This document shows, in pieces, positions 38,501 through 44,500 of a stretch of 64,000 nt of DNA. Origin of the DNA: Gekko japonicus (lineage: Eukaryota); the NCBI RefSeq assembly GCF_001447785.1, contig NW_015171536.1, positions 483,102-547,101 of the forward strand, written 5' to 3'. Within the stretch, counting starts at the first letter, position 1; each line of letters begins with the position of its first letter. Made by a program: the position numbers.

Positions 38501-41500
38501 ACACAGAAACCAACCAGTGCCCCAAACCACAGGTGACTGAGAGACACCATATCATTTTGGGTGGTGTCATGCTGGAATACCTGGTGGGAAGAAAGGAAGA
38601 AGTGACAGGGTGCCTTGGCTCATACAAGCATGCACCCTCCCCATTACATCACTGATGTTACAATAGAGAAGAATATGGAATGCTTAGTTACAGCTCATAT
38701 ATTTGCAATGCAACGCTAAGCACAAAGGGCCCGGGTAGGCGAGGCCCGCCATTTGCGGGGCCAGGTGGGGGAGGAAGCGGCTGGCCAATCGTTGGGTCGG
38801 GGGGGCAGGCGAGTGGTGGGAAGTTAGGTGCTTCCCCTCCCTCCCCAGGCCAATTGCCAGGCAGCAGGTTGGCCGGAGGGAGAGGCCTGGATATACGTGA
38901 CCCAGGTCACTTGCCGTCCTCATGCCGTCCTCACGCCGTTCCATCGGCAGCTGGAGCTGCTTGCTGCTAGGTTGGCTGGAGGGAGAGGCCTGGATATACG
39001 TGACACAGGTCACTTGCCGTCCTCACGCCGTTCCATCGTGGGGAGCTGCCTGGGTGAAAGAGTGGAGGATGGTGGCCAGGTATGTCCCCCGGGGCATAGG
39101 ACCGCACCATACATGGAAGCCCCCCCCTGCAGCTGCTGGGACCGGCCGGGGGAGGCTGCTGTGCGCAGCTCTTCTTCTGGCCGCGCCAACCAGCATCAGG
39201 GCTCAGGCCAGGTGCAGTCGGCCTGGGGCATTGTGGCTCCCTCTGCTCGGCCACTCGGTCCATCAGGCCTTCCGCTGCCTCACCACTCCCTCCCCTGGGG
39301 CCTAGGGCCGCACCATTCCATGGCGCCCCCCGGCCACTGGGGGCTGGCCGTGGGGAGGCTGCTGAGAGTGGCCCCCTTTTGCGGCCACATGGTCAGCGGG
39401 CTTCGCGCAGCTCCACCCCTTCCGGCCGCGCCAGCCGGCATCAAGGCTTGGCCAGACGTGGGCAGCATGGGGCCTTGCGGATCCTCCGCACGGCGGCCCA
39501 GACCATCAGCCCAGCCACTGCCTCACCACTCCCTCCCCCGGGGCCCAGGACCATGCCATTCAGTGGTGCCCCCCGCCGCTGCTGGGGGGGTGGCTGGGGG
39601 TAGCTGCCATGTGTGGCTCCCCTTTTCAGCCATGGGGCGGTGGGCTGCATGCGGCCATGCCCCTCCCCCTACCAGGCTCCTGCCTGGGCACGTGTGGTTG
39701 GTGGGGGGGCCAGATGGTCCAAACATGGGAGCATGCCCCCCCTGGGCAACAGGCGGTTTAGCCAATAATCTCGGCCCCCTACCACGGGCGCGGAGACCCA
39801 GCGGGCAGCTGATGATGGCACCATTTGCCGCCGTGGGGGGTCCTCCACCAGCACGGCTACTCAGCAGTCGGCACGCAATAAGACCAAGGGGCAGGGGGGG
39901 CTCAGGCTTCTCAGCATGCCCCTGAGTTGAGACTGAGAGTGAGGATTCATCAGGTGAGGTTGCAGCAGGTGGGGACAGGCTGCCGCTGAGCGACTATTGG
40001 GCGGTAGCGGCCCATAAACTGGGGTTGCCGGCTTGGGCAATTCATCGTAGGGCCTTGACTGCCCGGGCCAACGGGGATCCCGGGGCGGTCTGTGATGACG
40101 TGGATGTGTCCGATCCATCCTCCACCTTGTCCACGTATTCAAATGGCGAGGATCCGCCGGGGTGTCACTTAACAGATGAGGTTTGGGATAGTATTTTAGA
40201 TTGGTATTATGTTAATGTCTTTACTTTGCACAAGAAATGAGGGGAAGAGGGTTGCATGTTGACATCAGGCAGGAAGGAAAGGAAGGACAGACACAAGGAG
40301 GTGGAGCACACCTTTCTCAACTGGATCTCTGGCTACTTGTTATACACGGGAGTAGTGGCGATGGTGTATCCGGAAAGGGGTTGGCATCTGCTTTACCACA
40401 TGAACAACGTGGTCAAAGCCAGGGTCCTGGCCAGCGAGGGTCTGGCCATTGACTATGACAAGACGTGCCGTAAGCTGGTGTCATGGGACAACAGGGCATG
40501 GTGGGACTTGTTACAGGACAAAGTTTGGCTCCTGGAGGTAGGACCCTGTATAAAAGGGAAAGGAGAGGTCAAACCCAAACGGGGATCCGTGAGGCGGGAT
40601 CGGGCACGAGGGGTATGCTGGGAATATAACCAAAGGTGGTGCCGGAGGGCATGGTGTAAATTCAGTCACAGTTGCAAACTGTGTGGTGGGGGGCACGGAT
40701 GGATTTATTGTGCGCAGTCATCAGTCAGCTACCAGCCCTTTCGGGGTGGCAAGCCCTCCTCCGGTGGCACCACCAACAAAGGGGGAGGGGGGTCTTCCGG
40801 CACCGCAGCCACTTTTTCGTCAAGACGCTAGCACCTCACGGGGATTTTGGTCCTGGGCAATTACCCCGGTGCGGGTATCGGCCTTGAGACTGCTCCTGTT
40901 GGCATTCCCCTCCAAGAAGGCTGGCCAATATATTTGGGCTTCCCCATCCCTTTCAAGGGCCTGCGCTGTGCCATGGATTCAGATAATCTGAGGTCAGCCA
41001 AGGACCTGCCTGACGTGGTTGCCAAAAAGCTCCAGAAGGAGCTTTCTGTGGGGCACATCGTGGGTCCTTTTAGTGATCCCCCTTTAGCGAACCTGAGGGT
41101 ATCCCTCTTGGGAGTAGTGCCTAAGAAGACACCGGGCAAGTATCGCTTCATTCATCATCTCTCCTATCGGAAGGGTTCTTCGGTGAACAACATGATTCCG
41201 CCAGAGCTTTGCTCAGTTCGATATGCCTCGTTTGATCATGCTGTCGGGCTGGTCAGAGCATGTGGGTGGGGGGTGCTAATGGCCAAATGTGATATCCAGT
41301 CAGCATTCCGGTTGCTTCCAGTCTGCCCAGATGACTTCTGCTTTCTGGGTTTCAAATTTGGAGCGGCCTGGTACATGGACAAGGCCGCGAGGGGGCGGTC
41401 TGGTACACGAGGGATCACTCATTATCTGGATGATTTTTCTTTGTCGGCCCCAGGGACAATGGCACCTGTGCAGAATCTTTGCGGGCATTTCAAGGGCTTG

Positions 41501-44500
41501 CTGAGGAACTTGGTGTGCCGTTGGCTGCGGATAAGACCAAGGGGCCGACAACGCAGTTGACTTATCTTGGTATTCAGCTTGATTCAGAGAGGGGGGCATC
41601 GAGATTGCCGGAGGAGAAGCTCTAGGCCCTTCAGGCGCTCATCACATTAGTACGGGTGTGTTCCAAGTGCACCTTGAGGGAACTACAGTCATTGGTGGGG
41701 CATCTGAACTTTGTGTGCCGGGTCATTTCTCCAGGCAGGGCCTTTTGCTCTCGGCTAAGCCGGGCAACAGAAGGGGTCAGAGCACCCCATCATCGTGTAC
41801 GGGTGACTAATGGCATGAAGGAGGATTTGGGAGTCTGGCTTCAGTTTCTTTTGGGGTACAACGGGGTCACCATTTGGCAACAGCCCCTGGATGTGCAGGA
41901 TGCCATTCAGATACACTCTGACATGGCCGGGGGTGCCATGTTTGGAGTCTTTTATGAAGGCCGCTGGTGTGCACAGCCTTGGCCCGAGGCCTGGGGGGGG
42001 GTTGGAAGTTCTCAAGGATCTCACCTTTTTAGAGCTCTTACCAATACTGGTGGCGGTTGTGATTTGAAGGGATCTCTTTCGGAACAGGAGGGTGCGATTT
42101 GGGTGCGACAACCAGGCGGTTATGCGTGTGATGCGTCTGAACAAGTGATGCGGCTGGTCTGCTGGCTGGCTTTAGTGTGCTTGGTGGATAACATTACATT
42201 TGCAGCCCATCACGTTCCAGGTGTGGATAACAGCATAACGGATGCTTTGTCTTGCTTTCAGGAGGAGCGCTTTCGCGCATTGGCACTGGAAGCCAACCAC
42301 GTTCCAGACCTCTTTCCGGAGGAGGTTTGGGAACTTGGGAAGGTACAATAAGGCGGGGAATCTATGCCTCCATTGCCCCCTCCACTTTTCACTCTTACGC
42401 CAGGGCGATAGATGCCTTTTTCAACTTTACGGCGGAAGGCGGGGCCCCACAAACATGGCCCGTGGATGGGGAATGGGTGCTGCATTACATGGCTAGGCTT
42501 CAGGATAAAGGGTTTGCCCAGAGTACCATTCGGTGTCGCATGGCAGCCATTACATTTTTTAGTAAAGCGGAGGGGTTCATGGACCCTGCAACTCATTCCA
42601 AGCTTGTAGAGCGGTCGAGGGGTGGTGGAGGCTAGCAGTACAGTATCTGGATCACCGCAGGCCACTGACATTTAAATTATTAGAGCTAGTGTTGTGGGAG
42701 CTTCCGTCATTGTGTTGGTCCCCATATGAAACCGCGCTGTTCAAAGCTGCATTCGTGTTGGACTTTTTCGGGGCCCTGATGGTTGTTAAACTGGTAGCGG
42801 GCTCCAGACAATCATTCACCAATATGCCCTTGGGGGTTTGGGATGTTTTCATTGGGGTGGAAGGGGTCTCCTTGTTTATCAAGAGATCAAAGACGGATCA
42901 ATTGGGAAAATAAGCAAATTTGCACCTGGGCCCCCCCCCCCGGGGTGGCCATGCCCAGTACAGACCACGAGAGCATTCCTTGTGATGCGGCCACGGAAGG
43001 GCAGCCCCTTGCTCATCGACAGGGATGGGGCCCTGTTGACCAGGTACCAGTTCACGGGCGTGTTCAAGGTGGCACTGGGGGCTATGGACTTGCCCAGCAA
43101 GGAATTTGGGCCCCACTCATTTAGGATTTGGGCAGCAACCACGGCTGTGGGCCTCAGGATGTCCAAGATGCGCATAAGAGCCATTGGGCGGTGGCGCTCA
43201 ATGGCCTTCAAGGCATACATGCGGCCGCACCTGGTGGGTGGCCGATGAGGGCATCTCTGCCTCCTCAGTTCCAGATCAGAAATGCATAAAGGCATGGATT
43301 TTTGGGCACAGCATCGTTCATTGGGCTGGTTTGTATGCATTTCTAGCTGGGGCAAGGATTTGGGGCTGGAGGCAGCCATTCGCATCACGTGGATGGCCCA
43401 GCGGGGTATGTGGTGGAGATTGTTACTGCCCTGGTTGGGCCATGTCAGGGCCTGACACTAACCTCCTGATGCATTGGTGCTCCAACTGGGGGAGAATGAT
43501 TTGACAGAACAACCCAGCGTGTGTCTGGAATGCAAGGTGCTGGCTGACTTAGCCTTCTTGCGTCAGGTATTGCCCAACACAGTTTTCTTTTGGTCGGATT
43601 GGCTGGAACGGAGGTCATGGTGAGGAGCGGCCTATCCTGGAAAAGTGGACGTGGCAAGGAGGAAGTTGTCTGGCAGGCTGGGCAAGGCGGTTGAGTCTGC
43701 AGACGGTGTTTGGATCAGCCACCCGAACATCTCCCACAGGTTGGGGGCCTTGTTCCGGGCAGATGGAGTGCACCTGTCAGCATGGGGTATGGACATATGG
43801 CTACAGGGAATACGTTATTCTCTCCACTCTTGGCTACAGCTGTAGAGGCATTGGCGGGAGAAGGACTAAGTGGTTTGTCCTGCTCTCGTGGCCGTGACAG
43901 CATGGGGCCGGATCCGTTTGGCGGAAATCAGCCTGTGTGCCATTTTCCCGAGGTGGGGACCCCGTAAGGGTCTTGGCATGAGGGCTGAAGGGAGCAGACA
44001 AGCTCAAGGACTAACAGCGATAGACCTCACCGCTAGGTGGCAGGGGAGTCCACACAGGGGCAGGCGTCCAGGTGAACCCTGGCAACCTGCCATCCTGCAG
44101 TCTCTACCCATGCTGGCTGGCTGGGTAACAGATATCTCAGCTGGCAGAAGGGTCAGCCGACGGGTCGGATCTGGTGGACCCATGCTGTGCCAATGCCTAT
44201 AACAGCTGTAATCAATAAAGTTGTGGCCAATTTTATCCACCTAATTTCCAAAGAACCTGTGTGTGAGTGGTCATTTGAACGGGGCAGTATAAGGCTGGCC
44301 AAGCCGCCCCATCCCGAATACGACCTGGAACCGCAAACAGAGTTACACCCTTCAAAATCTATGGAAGTTAACGTGTGGTTTAGGACTGCACTGTTAATGT
44401 AGGGTAGGTTCGAAGGGTAGCCGTGTTGATCTGCAGTAGTACAGCTAGGCAGGAAGCCAGTAGCACCTTAGAGAATTCCACTTTGGGAGGAGATGAAAAA

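What the first reader, a model, noticed from the sequence alone, without database searches (positions are those of the whole stretch)
38715..44335. Complete five-module tyrosine-recombinase retrotransposon (gag-ZnF, RT, RNase H, YR, SGNH hydrolase) in a reptile cadherin intron
Seen in sequence: all modules are present in order, antisense to CDH19. The hydrolase keeps GHS, GEND and DGVH. Established knowledge: Ngaro-group YR retrotransposons can carry an SGNH hydrolase, resembling the esterase in some CR1/L2 ORF1 proteins, whereas DIRS1-group elements carry a methyltransferase-like domain; these elements are absent from mammals and birds. The hydrolase function is unknown. This copy is dead (stops, frameshifts) but still GC/CpG-rich, so intact relatives may exist in the genome.
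Basis: partly seen in the sequence, partly recalled or inferred. Interest (0 to 1): 0.65.

Follow-up and report, generated by a model that had tools for sequence, protein, structure and literature searches.

The report
Dead Ngaro-like retrotransposon with esterase gene
This is a broken copy of a known kind of jumping gene that inserts with a tyrosine recombinase and also carries a lipase-like esterase gene, sitting backwards inside an intron of a lizard-type cadherin gene; it is an ordinary relic, not a new kind of element.

Summary
On the + strand, about 39.97-43.85 kb carries four genes in order. They are a gag-like gene with a CCCH finger, RT/RNase H, a tyrosine recombinase (YR) and an SGNH esterase. 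The esterase keeps GHS, GEND and DGVH at the family's catalytic columns. The element lies antisense between exons of a classical cadherin gene and is GC- and CpG-rich. All four genes are broken: 7 stops, 6-7 frameshifts and 2-3 deletions in total.

The layout matches published Ngaro-like elements of Xenopus, which have gag, RT/RH, YR and SGNH genes. There is no room for a methyltransferase domain, and YR lies after pol.

Three points are not upheld or not tested:
- "Complete" is too strong. No split direct or inverted terminal repeats are detectable, and RT has lost residues.
- CDH19 orthology and RT/YR phylogeny could not be tested.
- "Absent from mammals" needs softening, because old fossils are reported in human.

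The closest named relatives are squamate; the gag-like gene is 71% identical to Gekko kuhli. A profile of 40 esterase relatives finds the zebrafish L2 LINE ORF1p esterase (4c1b) as best solved relative, E 3.8e-10.

Verdict: new member of a known kind, low interest.

The parts
38715..39973 (+). GC-rich 5' leader with internal sub-repeats, probably non-coding. The start is set by composition only.
   Evidence: GC is 0.57-0.70. Sub-repeats are 63 nt x2 at 95% identity and about 215-243 nt units at 75-78%. The long open frame here has no Pfam family. Relatives align only from 39935/39974 onward.
39974..40831 (+). gag-like ORF1 with a CCCH-type finger. Broken: 1 stop, 0 frameshifts.
   Evidence: It is 64% identical over 284 aligned residues to a 300-aa Gekko kuhli protein, P0102. 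P0102 ends at the same point. The C-x7-C-x4-C-x3-H pattern is in the window and in P0102. In P0102, zf-CCCH_2 scores E 0.0023, below the cut-off.
40689..42351 (+). Reverse transcriptase / RNase H gene. Its start overlaps the end of the gag-like gene. Broken: 2 stops, 3-4 frameshifts, 2-3 deletions of 5 or more residues (29-35 residues missing, longest 22).
   Evidence: Relatives are 60-68% identical. RVT_1 is found in 7 of 7 named relatives at E 1e-10 to 1e-13. The family profile matches Ty3 RT/RNase H 4ol8 at E 4.8e-10 across both domains. The fold of relative P0002 matches CaMV, Ty3 and MMLV RT-RH.
42348..43248 (+). Tyrosine recombinase gene. Broken: 1 stop, 2 frameshifts, and one conserved active-site position not kept.
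   Evidence: Pfam Phage_int_SAM_1 hits the window's own piece at E 4.7e-6, above the cut-off. It is 51% identical over 297 residues to P0022. P0022 has SAM_1 at 3.6e-4, Phage_integrase at 1.6e-3, and Cre recombinase at about 1e-5. H-x-x-R and the GRW...Y tail are read.
43250..43845 (+). SGNH (GDSL-like) esterase gene. Broken: 3 stops, 1 frameshift.
   Evidence: There are 79 relatives. Three relatives of about 200 aa align end to end at about 43% identity. GHS, RGM, GEND and DGVH align to family blocks I, II, III and V. The profile hits 4c1b at E 3.8e-10. The model of relative P0027 has an SGNH fold.
43846..44335 (+). 3' non-coding tail. The end is uncertain: GC falls near 44.4-44.5 kb.
   Evidence: Composition. 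There is no repeat shared with the 5' part and no internal direct repeat. An AATAAA lies about 370 nt after the hydrolase gene; its role is inferred.
49750..49923 (-). Nearest detected upstream host exon (an open segment holding it): cadherin repeat.
   Evidence: Pfam Cadherin E 2.3e-9. Further cadherin segments lie at 53931-54245, 58016-58234, 61009-61179 and 63815-63985.
13778..14302 (-). Nearest detected downstream host exon (an open segment holding it): cadherin cytoplasmic domain.
   Evidence: PF01049 E 2.2e-16. E-cadherin cytoplasmic domain 1i7w_B E 7.7e-19.

Best explanation
This is a dead, intronic copy of a tyrosine-recombinase retrotransposon (order DIRS). Its layout is that described for Ngaro-like elements carrying an extra SGNH esterase gene.

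How an intact element of this kind is thought to work (inferred from the published model for these elements, nothing shown here):
- It is transcribed from its 5' region.
- The gag-like CCCH-finger protein accompanies the RNA.
- RT/RNase H copies the RNA into DNA, which is closed into a circle with the help of terminal repeats.
- The recombinase inserts the circle by site-specific recombination, without a target-site duplication.

The esterase:
- It is most likely an active serine acyl-esterase. This is inferred from the catalytic Ser, Gly, Asn and Asp-His being kept in most of 40 relatives.
- It probably acts on or binds membrane lipids, like its closest solved relative, the ORF1p esterase of the zebrafish L2 LINE. 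That enzyme is active and binds acidic phospholipids.

This particular copy can do none of it. All four genes are broken, and no terminal repeats are left.
For: Modules and order.

RT/RH:
- RVT_1 in 7/7 named relatives.
- Ty3 RT/RH 4ol8 at E 4.8e-10.
- Fold matches.

YR:
- PF02899 above cut-off on the window's own piece.
- Cre recombinase matches for relative P0022.

Esterase:
- 20 of 48 scanned relatives hit PF13472 at E<=1e-3.
- Catalytic columns are kept.
- The window's motifs align to those columns.
- Model pLDDT is 95.9. There are 154 PDB matches at E<=1e-3, led by PAF acetylhydrolase Ib and GDSL enzymes.
- 4c1b is the best sequence match.
- Atlas clusters are named PAF-AH-like / SGNH, mostly Chordata.

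Linkage in other copies:
- 2 of 79 hydrolase relatives carry YR sequence upstream in the same protein, and 1 of 79 carries RT sequence.
- In P0057 the YR tail runs straight into the hydrolase.

No methyltransferase:
- The RT/RH relatives end at 42339-42345 and the YR relative starts at 42348.
- None of 21 RT/RH relatives lists a methyltransferase family.

Literature:
- The same four genes are described in Xenopus Ngaro-like families (PMC9210276).
- Ngaro lacks MT (PMC3266345).
- Esterase activity and lipid binding of ZfL2-1 ORF1p (PMC3905857).
Against: - No split direct repeats were found. The best local alignment of the 5' against the 3' part is reached by 56 of 100 shuffles (direct) and 22 of 100 (inverted).
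- The window's own pieces, other than the YR N-domain, hit no Pfam family.
- Only 1 of 48 hydrolase relatives passes Pfam's curated cut-off. 23 of 48 hit nothing, and 4 of 48 are repeat-protein false positives.
- 'gag' has no family support.
- No phylogeny against labelled Ngaro, DIRS1 or PAT references was possible.
- For LINEs, one paper states that transposition does not depend on the esterase activity (PMC13343379 citing Kajikawa 2012). A needed catalytic role is therefore not a given.
Confidence: 0.85

Rival explanations
1. It is a DIRS1-like or PAT-like element rather than Ngaro-like, and the hydrolase is a lineage-specific addition.
For: No split direct repeats were found, so the repeat criterion for Ngaro is unmet. 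Phylogeny is untested. DIRS1-like elements are abundant in a lizard, with 775 copies in 42 families in Anolis (PMC3266345).
Against: There is no space for a methyltransferase domain between RNase H and YR. None of 21 relatives lists one. YR lies after pol, not before it as in DIRS1 (PMC3266345). No inverted repeats were found. An SGNH gene after YR is described for Ngaro-like families only (PMC9210276).
Confidence: 0.07
2. The locus is a chance composite: a YR retrotransposon next to an unrelated esterase fragment, for example from a CR1/L2 LINE ORF1.
For: A second, much more decayed SGNH-like remnant lies alone at 24.2-24.64 kb. This shows that such fragments occur in this intron. The best solved relative of the hydrolase is a LINE esterase.
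Against: The hydrolase starts within a few bases of the YR end, on the same strand and with the same GC/CpG make-up. Relatives carry YR or RT sequence fused to the hydrolase (3 of 79; P0057). Published Ngaro-like elements have this gene.
Confidence: 0.03
3. The 1.25-kb GC-rich repeat block at 38.7-39.97 kb is not part of the element. It would be a separate minisatellite or CpG island beside a 5'-truncated copy.
For: It has no homology to any relative and no Pfam family. It has its own sub-repeat structure, and GC higher than the coding part. No terminal repeat ties it to the 3' end.
Against: It abuts the gag-like gene without a composition break, and its CpG o/e is like that of the element. 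YR retrotransposons have long repeat-bearing non-coding ends (PMC9210276).
Confidence: 0.3

Closest known systems
[quoted passage not shown]
   Same: Four genes in the same order: gag-like, RT/RH, YR, SGNH hydrolase. Neighbouring genes overlap or abut. There is no methyltransferase domain. DIRS-54_XT also shows no split direct repeats.
   Different: The host here is squamate-like. All genes are broken. No split direct repeats are found, whereas DIRS-53_XT has A 236 bp and B 152 bp. A CCCH finger in the gag-like gene is not mentioned in the passages read. No sequence comparison was possible.
Ngaro1_DR of zebrafish (accession named in PMC9210276), the founding Ngaro element
   Same: It is a YR retrotransposon without a methyltransferase domain, with YR after RT/RH (as described in passages).
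   Different: Not compared by sequence, because no tool could fetch it.
DIRS1-like elements (e.g. DIRS-1_ACar of Anolis)
   Same: Same order of retrotransposons, also present in squamates. RT/RH is of the Ty3/gypsy-related type, and it has a YR.
   Different: DIRS1-like elements have a methyltransferase domain, inverted terminal repeats with an internal complementary region, and YR before or overlapping pol. None of these is seen here.
Esterase domain of ZfL2-1 (L2 LINE) ORF1p, PDB 4c1b
   Same: It is an SGNH esterase carried by a retroelement. It is the best solved sequence relative of the family profile (E 3.8e-10; next hit 0.0066). The same catalytic residues are kept.
   Different: It sits in ORF1 of a non-LTR element, behind a coiled coil. 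It shares only 18% identity in the structural alignment, and TM is 0.44-0.54 because the crystal form is domain-swapped (PMC3905857).
PAF acetylhydrolase Ib catalytic subunits and bacterial GDSL/TesA-type esterases
   Same: They are the best fold matches to the model of relative P0027 (3dt6, E 6e-8, TM 0.73).
   Different: They are cellular enzymes with 14-19% identity and no link to mobile elements.

Membership tests
Tyrosine-recombinase retrotransposons (order DIRS) | RT and RNase H of the Ty3/gypsy-related type | tested here: met
   RVT_1 in 7/7 named relatives. Profile against Ty3 RT/RH 4ol8 at E 4.8e-10 over both domains. Fold matches. The window aligns to these relatives at 60-68% identity.
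Tyrosine-recombinase retrotransposons (order DIRS) | A tyrosine recombinase gene in place of a DDE integrase, on the same strand next to pol | tested here: met
   PF02899 E 4.7e-6 on the window's own piece. Relative P0022 matches Phage_integrase and Cre. The gene lies at 42348-43248, directly after RT/RH.
Ngaro-like | No methyltransferase domain after RNase H | tested here: met
   RT/RH relatives end at 42339-42345 and YR starts at 42348. 0 of 21 relatives list a methyltransferase family. Caveat: Pfam may miss the DIRS-type domain.
Ngaro-like | Gene order gag-like, RT/RH, YR | tested here: met
Ngaro-like | Split direct repeats (A1 ... B1 A2 B2) | tested here: not met
   No 5'/3' similarity above shuffles and no direct repeat in the 3' part. 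In a decayed or truncated copy this is weak evidence. DIRS-54_XT also lacks them.
Ngaro-like | RT/RH (and YR) cluster with Ngaro references in a tree | not testable with these tools
   No labelled Ngaro, DIRS1 or PAT sequences could be fetched. Typing them is barred.
Ngaro-like | Extra SGNH hydrolase gene after YR (described for amphibian members) | tested here: met
   Literature.
DIRS1-like | Methyltransferase domain; inverted terminal repeats plus an internal complementary region; YR gene before or overlapping pol | tested here: not met
   No room for MT. One 28-nt inverted pair at 75%, lying outside the element. Inverted 5'/3' alignment is not above shuffles. YR lies after pol.
PAT-like | Split direct repeats and RT/RH sister to DIRS1-like | tested here: inconclusive
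   Repeats were not found. Phylogeny is not testable.
SGNH / GDSL-like hydrolases | Four blocks with catalytic Ser (I), Gly (II), Asn (III) and Asp-x-x-His (V) | tested here: met
   The window's GHS, RGM, GEND and DGVH align to P0027 residues 19-21, 53-55, 82-85 and 173-176. Family counts are S 33/37, G 33/38, N 37/39, D 38/39 and H 37/40.
SGNH / GDSL-like hydrolases | Curated profile match (Pfam PF13472) | tested here: inconclusive
   The window's pieces give none at E<=0.1. Among relatives, 20/48 hit at E<=1e-3 but only 1/48 is above the curated cut-off.
SGNH / GDSL-like hydrolases | Three-layer alpha/beta/alpha SGNH fold | tested here: met
   This was shown for the natural relative P0027, not for the broken window copy. 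pLDDT is 95.9. There are 154 PDB matches at E<=1e-3, all listed ones being SGNH/GDSL enzymes or designs on that scaffold.
Classical cadherin (host gene); CDH19 | Cadherin repeats plus the classical cytoplasmic domain; orthology to CDH19 | tested here: inconclusive
   Repeats and cytoplasmic domain are met. Five repeat-bearing segments and the last exon were found among 273 minus-strand segments scanned. CDH19 orthology was not tested, because no protein search was left. Exons were searched one by one and not joined.

The most novel reading that the evidence does not exclude
The esterase gene may be one module shared by exchange between CR1/L2-type LINEs and Ngaro-like YR retrotransposons. It is kept catalytically intact in both, although they insert by unrelated mechanisms. 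If so, lipid or membrane chemistry would be a common need of vertebrate retroelement particles. Squamates (geckos, lacertids, anoles, snakes) would then still hold lineages with unbroken genes in which this could be studied descriptively.
Probability: 0.15. Interest if true: 0.45.

Novelty: new member of a known kind. Interest (0 to 1): 0.2.

Why it matters
It adds a squamate example to the few described YR retrotransposons that carry an SGNH esterase. In the searchable open literature, only the Xenopus study holds both 'Ngaro' and 'SGNH'.

It also gives tool-based support that this esterase is closer in sequence to the L2 LINE ORF1p esterase than to any other solved SGNH enzyme. The role of the esterase in either kind of element is still unknown.

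The copy itself is a relic with no likely effect beyond adding about 5.6 kb of CpG-rich DNA to a cadherin intron.

Tried and rejected
- Pfam on 26 + strand open pieces of the element: only the YR N-domain hit. The modules therefore had to be tested through natural relatives.
- PDB search with the 73-aa hydrolase tail alone: nothing meaningful.
- YR piece searched among longer proteins: 1 hit only.
- Atlas search with the gag-like relative: no informative cluster.
- Terminal repeats: the repeat finder, blastn with word 7, and Smith-Waterman against shuffles were all negative.
- Second copy in the window: none.
- Rfam and tRNA scans of the window: 0 hits.
- PDB search with a piece of the second SGNH-like remnant: 0 hits.
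- The listing of cluster members for names and taxa of ten hydrolase relatives: could not be made. Their organisms therefore stay unknown.
- One paper search was badly set and useless.

Rejected readings:
- The 365-aa open frame in the 5' leader is not taken as a gene. It lies in GC-rich sub-repeats and has no family or relative.
- The four multi-stretch hits of the hydrolase search (three NHL-repeat proteins and one other) are treated as false positives.

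
Full report
**What is there**

The window holds three N runs, at 37504-37513, 37791-37814 and 51048-51176. I left them alone.

Between about 38.7 and 44.4 kb the DNA changes character. The five 1-kb bins from 39001 to 44000 have GC 0.52-0.68 and CpG observed/expected 0.42-0.59. The near flanks have CpG o/e 0.00-0.21. Only 10 of the 64 bins of the window reach 0.40, and five of them are these.

Reading the three + frames shows, in order:
- a Cys/His finger;
- an RT with a YLDDF-type motif;
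- an RNase H-like stretch;
- a recombinase with H-x-x-R and GRW...Y;
- a hydrolase with GHS, GEND and DGVH.

**Is it more than chance, and what are the modules?**

Pfam on 26 + strand open pieces found one family only. This was the SAM-like N-domain of phage-type integrases (PF02899, E 4.7e-6, 27.2 bits against a cut-off of 22.3). The other modules were therefore tested through natural relatives, compared as they stand.

RT/RNase H:
- An unbroken 237-aa RT piece found 21 longer proteins (E 1e-32 to 1e-73, among 674 candidates).
- The named ones come from Eublepharis macularius, Anolis sagrei, Podarcis muralis, Erythrolamprus reginae, Zootoca vivipara and the newt Pleurodeles waltl.
- All 7 named ones carry RVT_1 at E 1e-10 to 1e-13.
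- A profile of the 21 matches Ty3 RT/RNase H (4ol8) at E 4.8e-10, over profile positions 115-525 and chain residues 100-476. That span covers both domains.
- An AlphaFold model of the Eublepharis protein (pLDDT 83.5) matches CaMV, Ty3, MMLV and foamy-virus RT-RNase H at E 1e-16 to 1e-19.

Tyrosine recombinase:
- The catalytic piece found a single longer relative, P0022 (301 aa, E 4.3e-30).
- P0022 has sub-threshold Phage_int_SAM_1 (3.6e-4) and Phage_integrase (1.6e-3) matches.
- It also matches Cre recombinase at about 1e-5.

Gag-like gene:
- Its piece found three Gekko kuhli proteins.
- The best, P0102 (300 aa), is 71% identical over 173 residues and ends exactly where the window's reading frame ends.
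- The pattern C-x7-C-x4-C-x3-H is in the window and in P0102. It was not found in the 9 other proteins examined, which are partial or RT/RH proteins.
- In P0102 it gives only sub-threshold CCCH-finger matches (E 0.0023 and 0.0089).
- The Atlas search gave nothing useful for this protein.
- 'gag' therefore rests on position, size and the finger.

**The hydrolase**

The unbroken 73-aa tail was searched against 1.84 billion representatives. It gave 79 proteins at E<=1e-3, six of them at E<=1e-10.

I scanned 48 of the 79 with Pfam. I dropped 30 proteins of 174 aa or less and one of 3112 aa. The results:
- 20 hit Lipase_GDSL_2 (PF13472) at E 1e-3 to 3e-8. Only one of them is above the curated cut-off.
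- 1 hit Phage_integrase.
- 23 hit nothing.
- 4 are repeat proteins (three NHL, one other) that matched in several short stretches. I take these as false positives.

In an alignment of 40 relatives (A1), the catalytic columns are kept:

| Block | Residue | Count |
|---|---|---|
| I | Gly | 36/37 |
| I | Ser | 33/37 |
| II | Gly | 33/38 |
| III | Gly | 36/39 |
| III | Asn | 37/39 |
| V | Asp | 38/39 |
| V | His | 37/40 |

The residue before the Ser is His in 28/37, so GHS rather than GDS is the family's habit.

The window's GHS, RGM, GEND and DGVH align to exactly these columns.

This test is partly independent of the search. Only the tail seeded it, yet relatives of about 200 aa align to the window end to end (43250-43842, about 43% identity). 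An HMM of A1 hits four open pieces of the hydrolase zone (E 3.4e-26, 4.1e-19, 3.2e-7, 2.6e-5) among 1637 six-frame pieces.

The A1 profile finds the ORF1p esterase of the zebrafish L2 LINE ZfL2-1 (4c1b) as the best solved relative, at E 3.8e-10. The next hit is at 0.0066. What 4c1b is comes from PMC3905857 (passages read).

A model of relative P0027 (pLDDT 95.9, pTM 0.90) has the SGNH fold. There are 154 PDB matches at E<=1e-3. They are led by brain PAF acetylhydrolase Ib (3dt6, E 6e-8, TM 0.73), GDSL enzymes, TesA and sialate O-acetylesterases. 4c1b ranks 43rd, with a low TM (0.44). PMC3905857 describes that crystal as a domain-swapped dimer, which I take to be the cause.

The Atlas lists look-alike clusters named 'putative 1-alkyl-2-acetylglycerophosphocholine esterase' and 'SGNH hydrolase-type esterase'. 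They are mostly Chordata, and PF13472 is on 30% and 14% of members.

**Linkage of the hydrolase to the element elsewhere**

- Of the 79 relatives, 2 carry YR sequence upstream in the same protein (P0057, P0028). One carries RT sequence (P0088).
- In P0057 the recombinase tail runs straight into the hydrolase.
- For the stand-alone proteins of about 200 aa the genomic context cannot be seen.

**Anatomy and state of decay**

A frameshift-aware alignment of natural relatives to the window gave these bounds and counts. Only scores, counts and outer bounds were printed.

| Gene | Bounds | Breaks |
|---|---|---|
| gag-like | 39974-40828 | 1 stop, 0 frameshifts |
| RT/RH | 40689 or 40857 to 42345 | 2 stops, 3-4 frameshifts, 2-3 deletions of 5 or more residues (29-35 residues missing, longest 22); counts vary with the relative used |
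| YR | 42348-43242 | 1 stop, 2 frameshifts |
| hydrolase | 43250-43842 | 3 stops, 1 frameshift (the same with three relatives) |

By eye, one conserved active-site position of the recombinase is also not kept. Every gene is broken, and the copy is dead.

There is no room for a methyltransferase domain between RNase H and YR. None of the 21 RT/RH relatives lists one.

The 1.25 kb before the gag-like gene is GC-rich (0.57-0.70) and made of sub-repeats. These are two 63-nt units at 95% identity and units of about 215-243 nt at 75-78%. The long open frame there has no family and no relative, so I take it as a non-coding leader. That is an inference.

No terminal repeats are detectable:
- blastn with 7-base words finds only 11-14 nt matches between the 5' and 3' parts.
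- The best local alignment is reached by 56 of 100 shuffles (direct) and 22 of 100 (inverted).
- The 3' part has no internal direct repeat.

There is no second copy in the window.

**Host gene**

I scanned 273 minus-strand open segments of 45 aa or more lying outside the element. This took 150 segments, 3 and 120.

- Cadherin repeats were found at 63815-63985, 61009-61179, 58016-58234, 53931-54245 and 49750-49923.
- The cadherin cytoplasmic domain was found at 13778-14302 (E 2.2e-16).
- PDB searches agree: E-cadherin cytoplasmic domain at 7.7e-19, and cadherin-8 among others.

The element therefore lies between detected exons, on the opposite strand. Short exons in between may have been missed.

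I searched the exons one by one and left out the joined step. Orthology to CDH19 was not tested, because no protein search remained. Nothing in the window looked human. The nearest named relatives of the element are all squamates, with geckos closest.

**Comparison with what is known**

[quoted passage not shown] They have gag-like, RT/RH, YR and an extra SGNH-hydrolase gene, and all reading frames overlap.
- DIRS-53_XT has split direct repeats, but none were found in DIRS-54_XT. The paper calls the hydrolase 'of no proven function'.
- PMC3266345 states that Ngaro and VIPER lack the methyltransferase domain. It also states that DIRS1-like elements have the order gag, YR, pol (RT-RH-MT) with inverted repeats.
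- PMC6681497 gives the four-group classification.
[quoted passage not shown] PMC9004415 lists 37 DIRS and 28 Ngaro protein fossils in human. 'Absent' therefore means no recognisable copies.
- PMC3905857 shows that the L2 esterase is active and binds acidic phospholipids and liposomes.
- PMC13343379 notes that LINE transposition appears not to depend on that activity.

I read passages of these papers, not whole texts or supplements. Goodwin & Poulter 2004 and Poulter & Butler 2015 are known to me only as cited in those passages.

In the searchable library, 'Ngaro' with 'SGNH' occurs only in the Xenopus work. Searches of 'Ngaro' with hydrolase, esterase, squamate or Anolis showed no description of such an element in a reptile.

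**Verdict**

This is a dead copy of a YR retrotransposon with the Ngaro-like, hydrolase-bearing layout. That makes it a new member of a known kind.

Membership of Ngaro proper is not formally established. The repeat criterion is unmet in this copy, and the phylogeny could not be run.

These points stayed unchecked:
- other copies in the source genome, and dN/dS;
- names and taxa of the hydrolase relatives (could not be made);
- the closed collections metagenome contigs and viral contigs. The genome-contig collection holds only bacteria and archaea and was not used.

Noticed in passing
window 24201-24638, + strand: A second, much more decayed SGNH-esterase-like remnant. It is about 21-31% identical to the same hydrolase relatives (tblastn E down to 1.5e-13). 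The A1 profile hits two of its pieces (E 8.9e-12 and 0.0011). No RT or YR similarity lies beside it, and there is no PDB hit. It may be a relic of a CR1-type LINE ORF1; that reading is inferred from PMC13343379.
   Followed up: partly
window 30112-30525, + strand, within a CpG-richer zone at about 29-35 kb: An open frame of 138 aa has a BTB/POZ domain (E 1.1e-7, above cut-off). It lies inside the cadherin intron. Three 1-kb bins there have CpG o/e 0.49-0.61. A 320-aa open frame on the opposite strand (29310-30272) has no family. It could be a retrocopy or another gene. Not pursued.
   Followed up: no
relatives P0057, P0028, P0088, P0065 (proteins): Some relatives are fusions. P0057 has the YR tail joined directly to the hydrolase. 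P0088 has an RT fragment plus the hydrolase. P0065 has a VGLL4-like N-terminus plus the hydrolase. Whether these are real fused genes or gene-model chimeras cannot be told without their DNA.
   Followed up: partly
window 40828-40860: The gag-like gene ends at a stop shared with its Gekko kuhli relative. The RT/RH relative of Eublepharis aligns from 40689, that is, from before that stop. The two genes therefore overlap, as reported for Xenopus Ngaro-like elements. A Podarcis gene model (P0005, 894 aa) joins both parts in one protein.
   Followed up: partly
window 55001-57000: Two further 1-kb bins have raised CpG o/e (0.43 and 0.40) between cadherin exons. Not examined.
   Followed up: no
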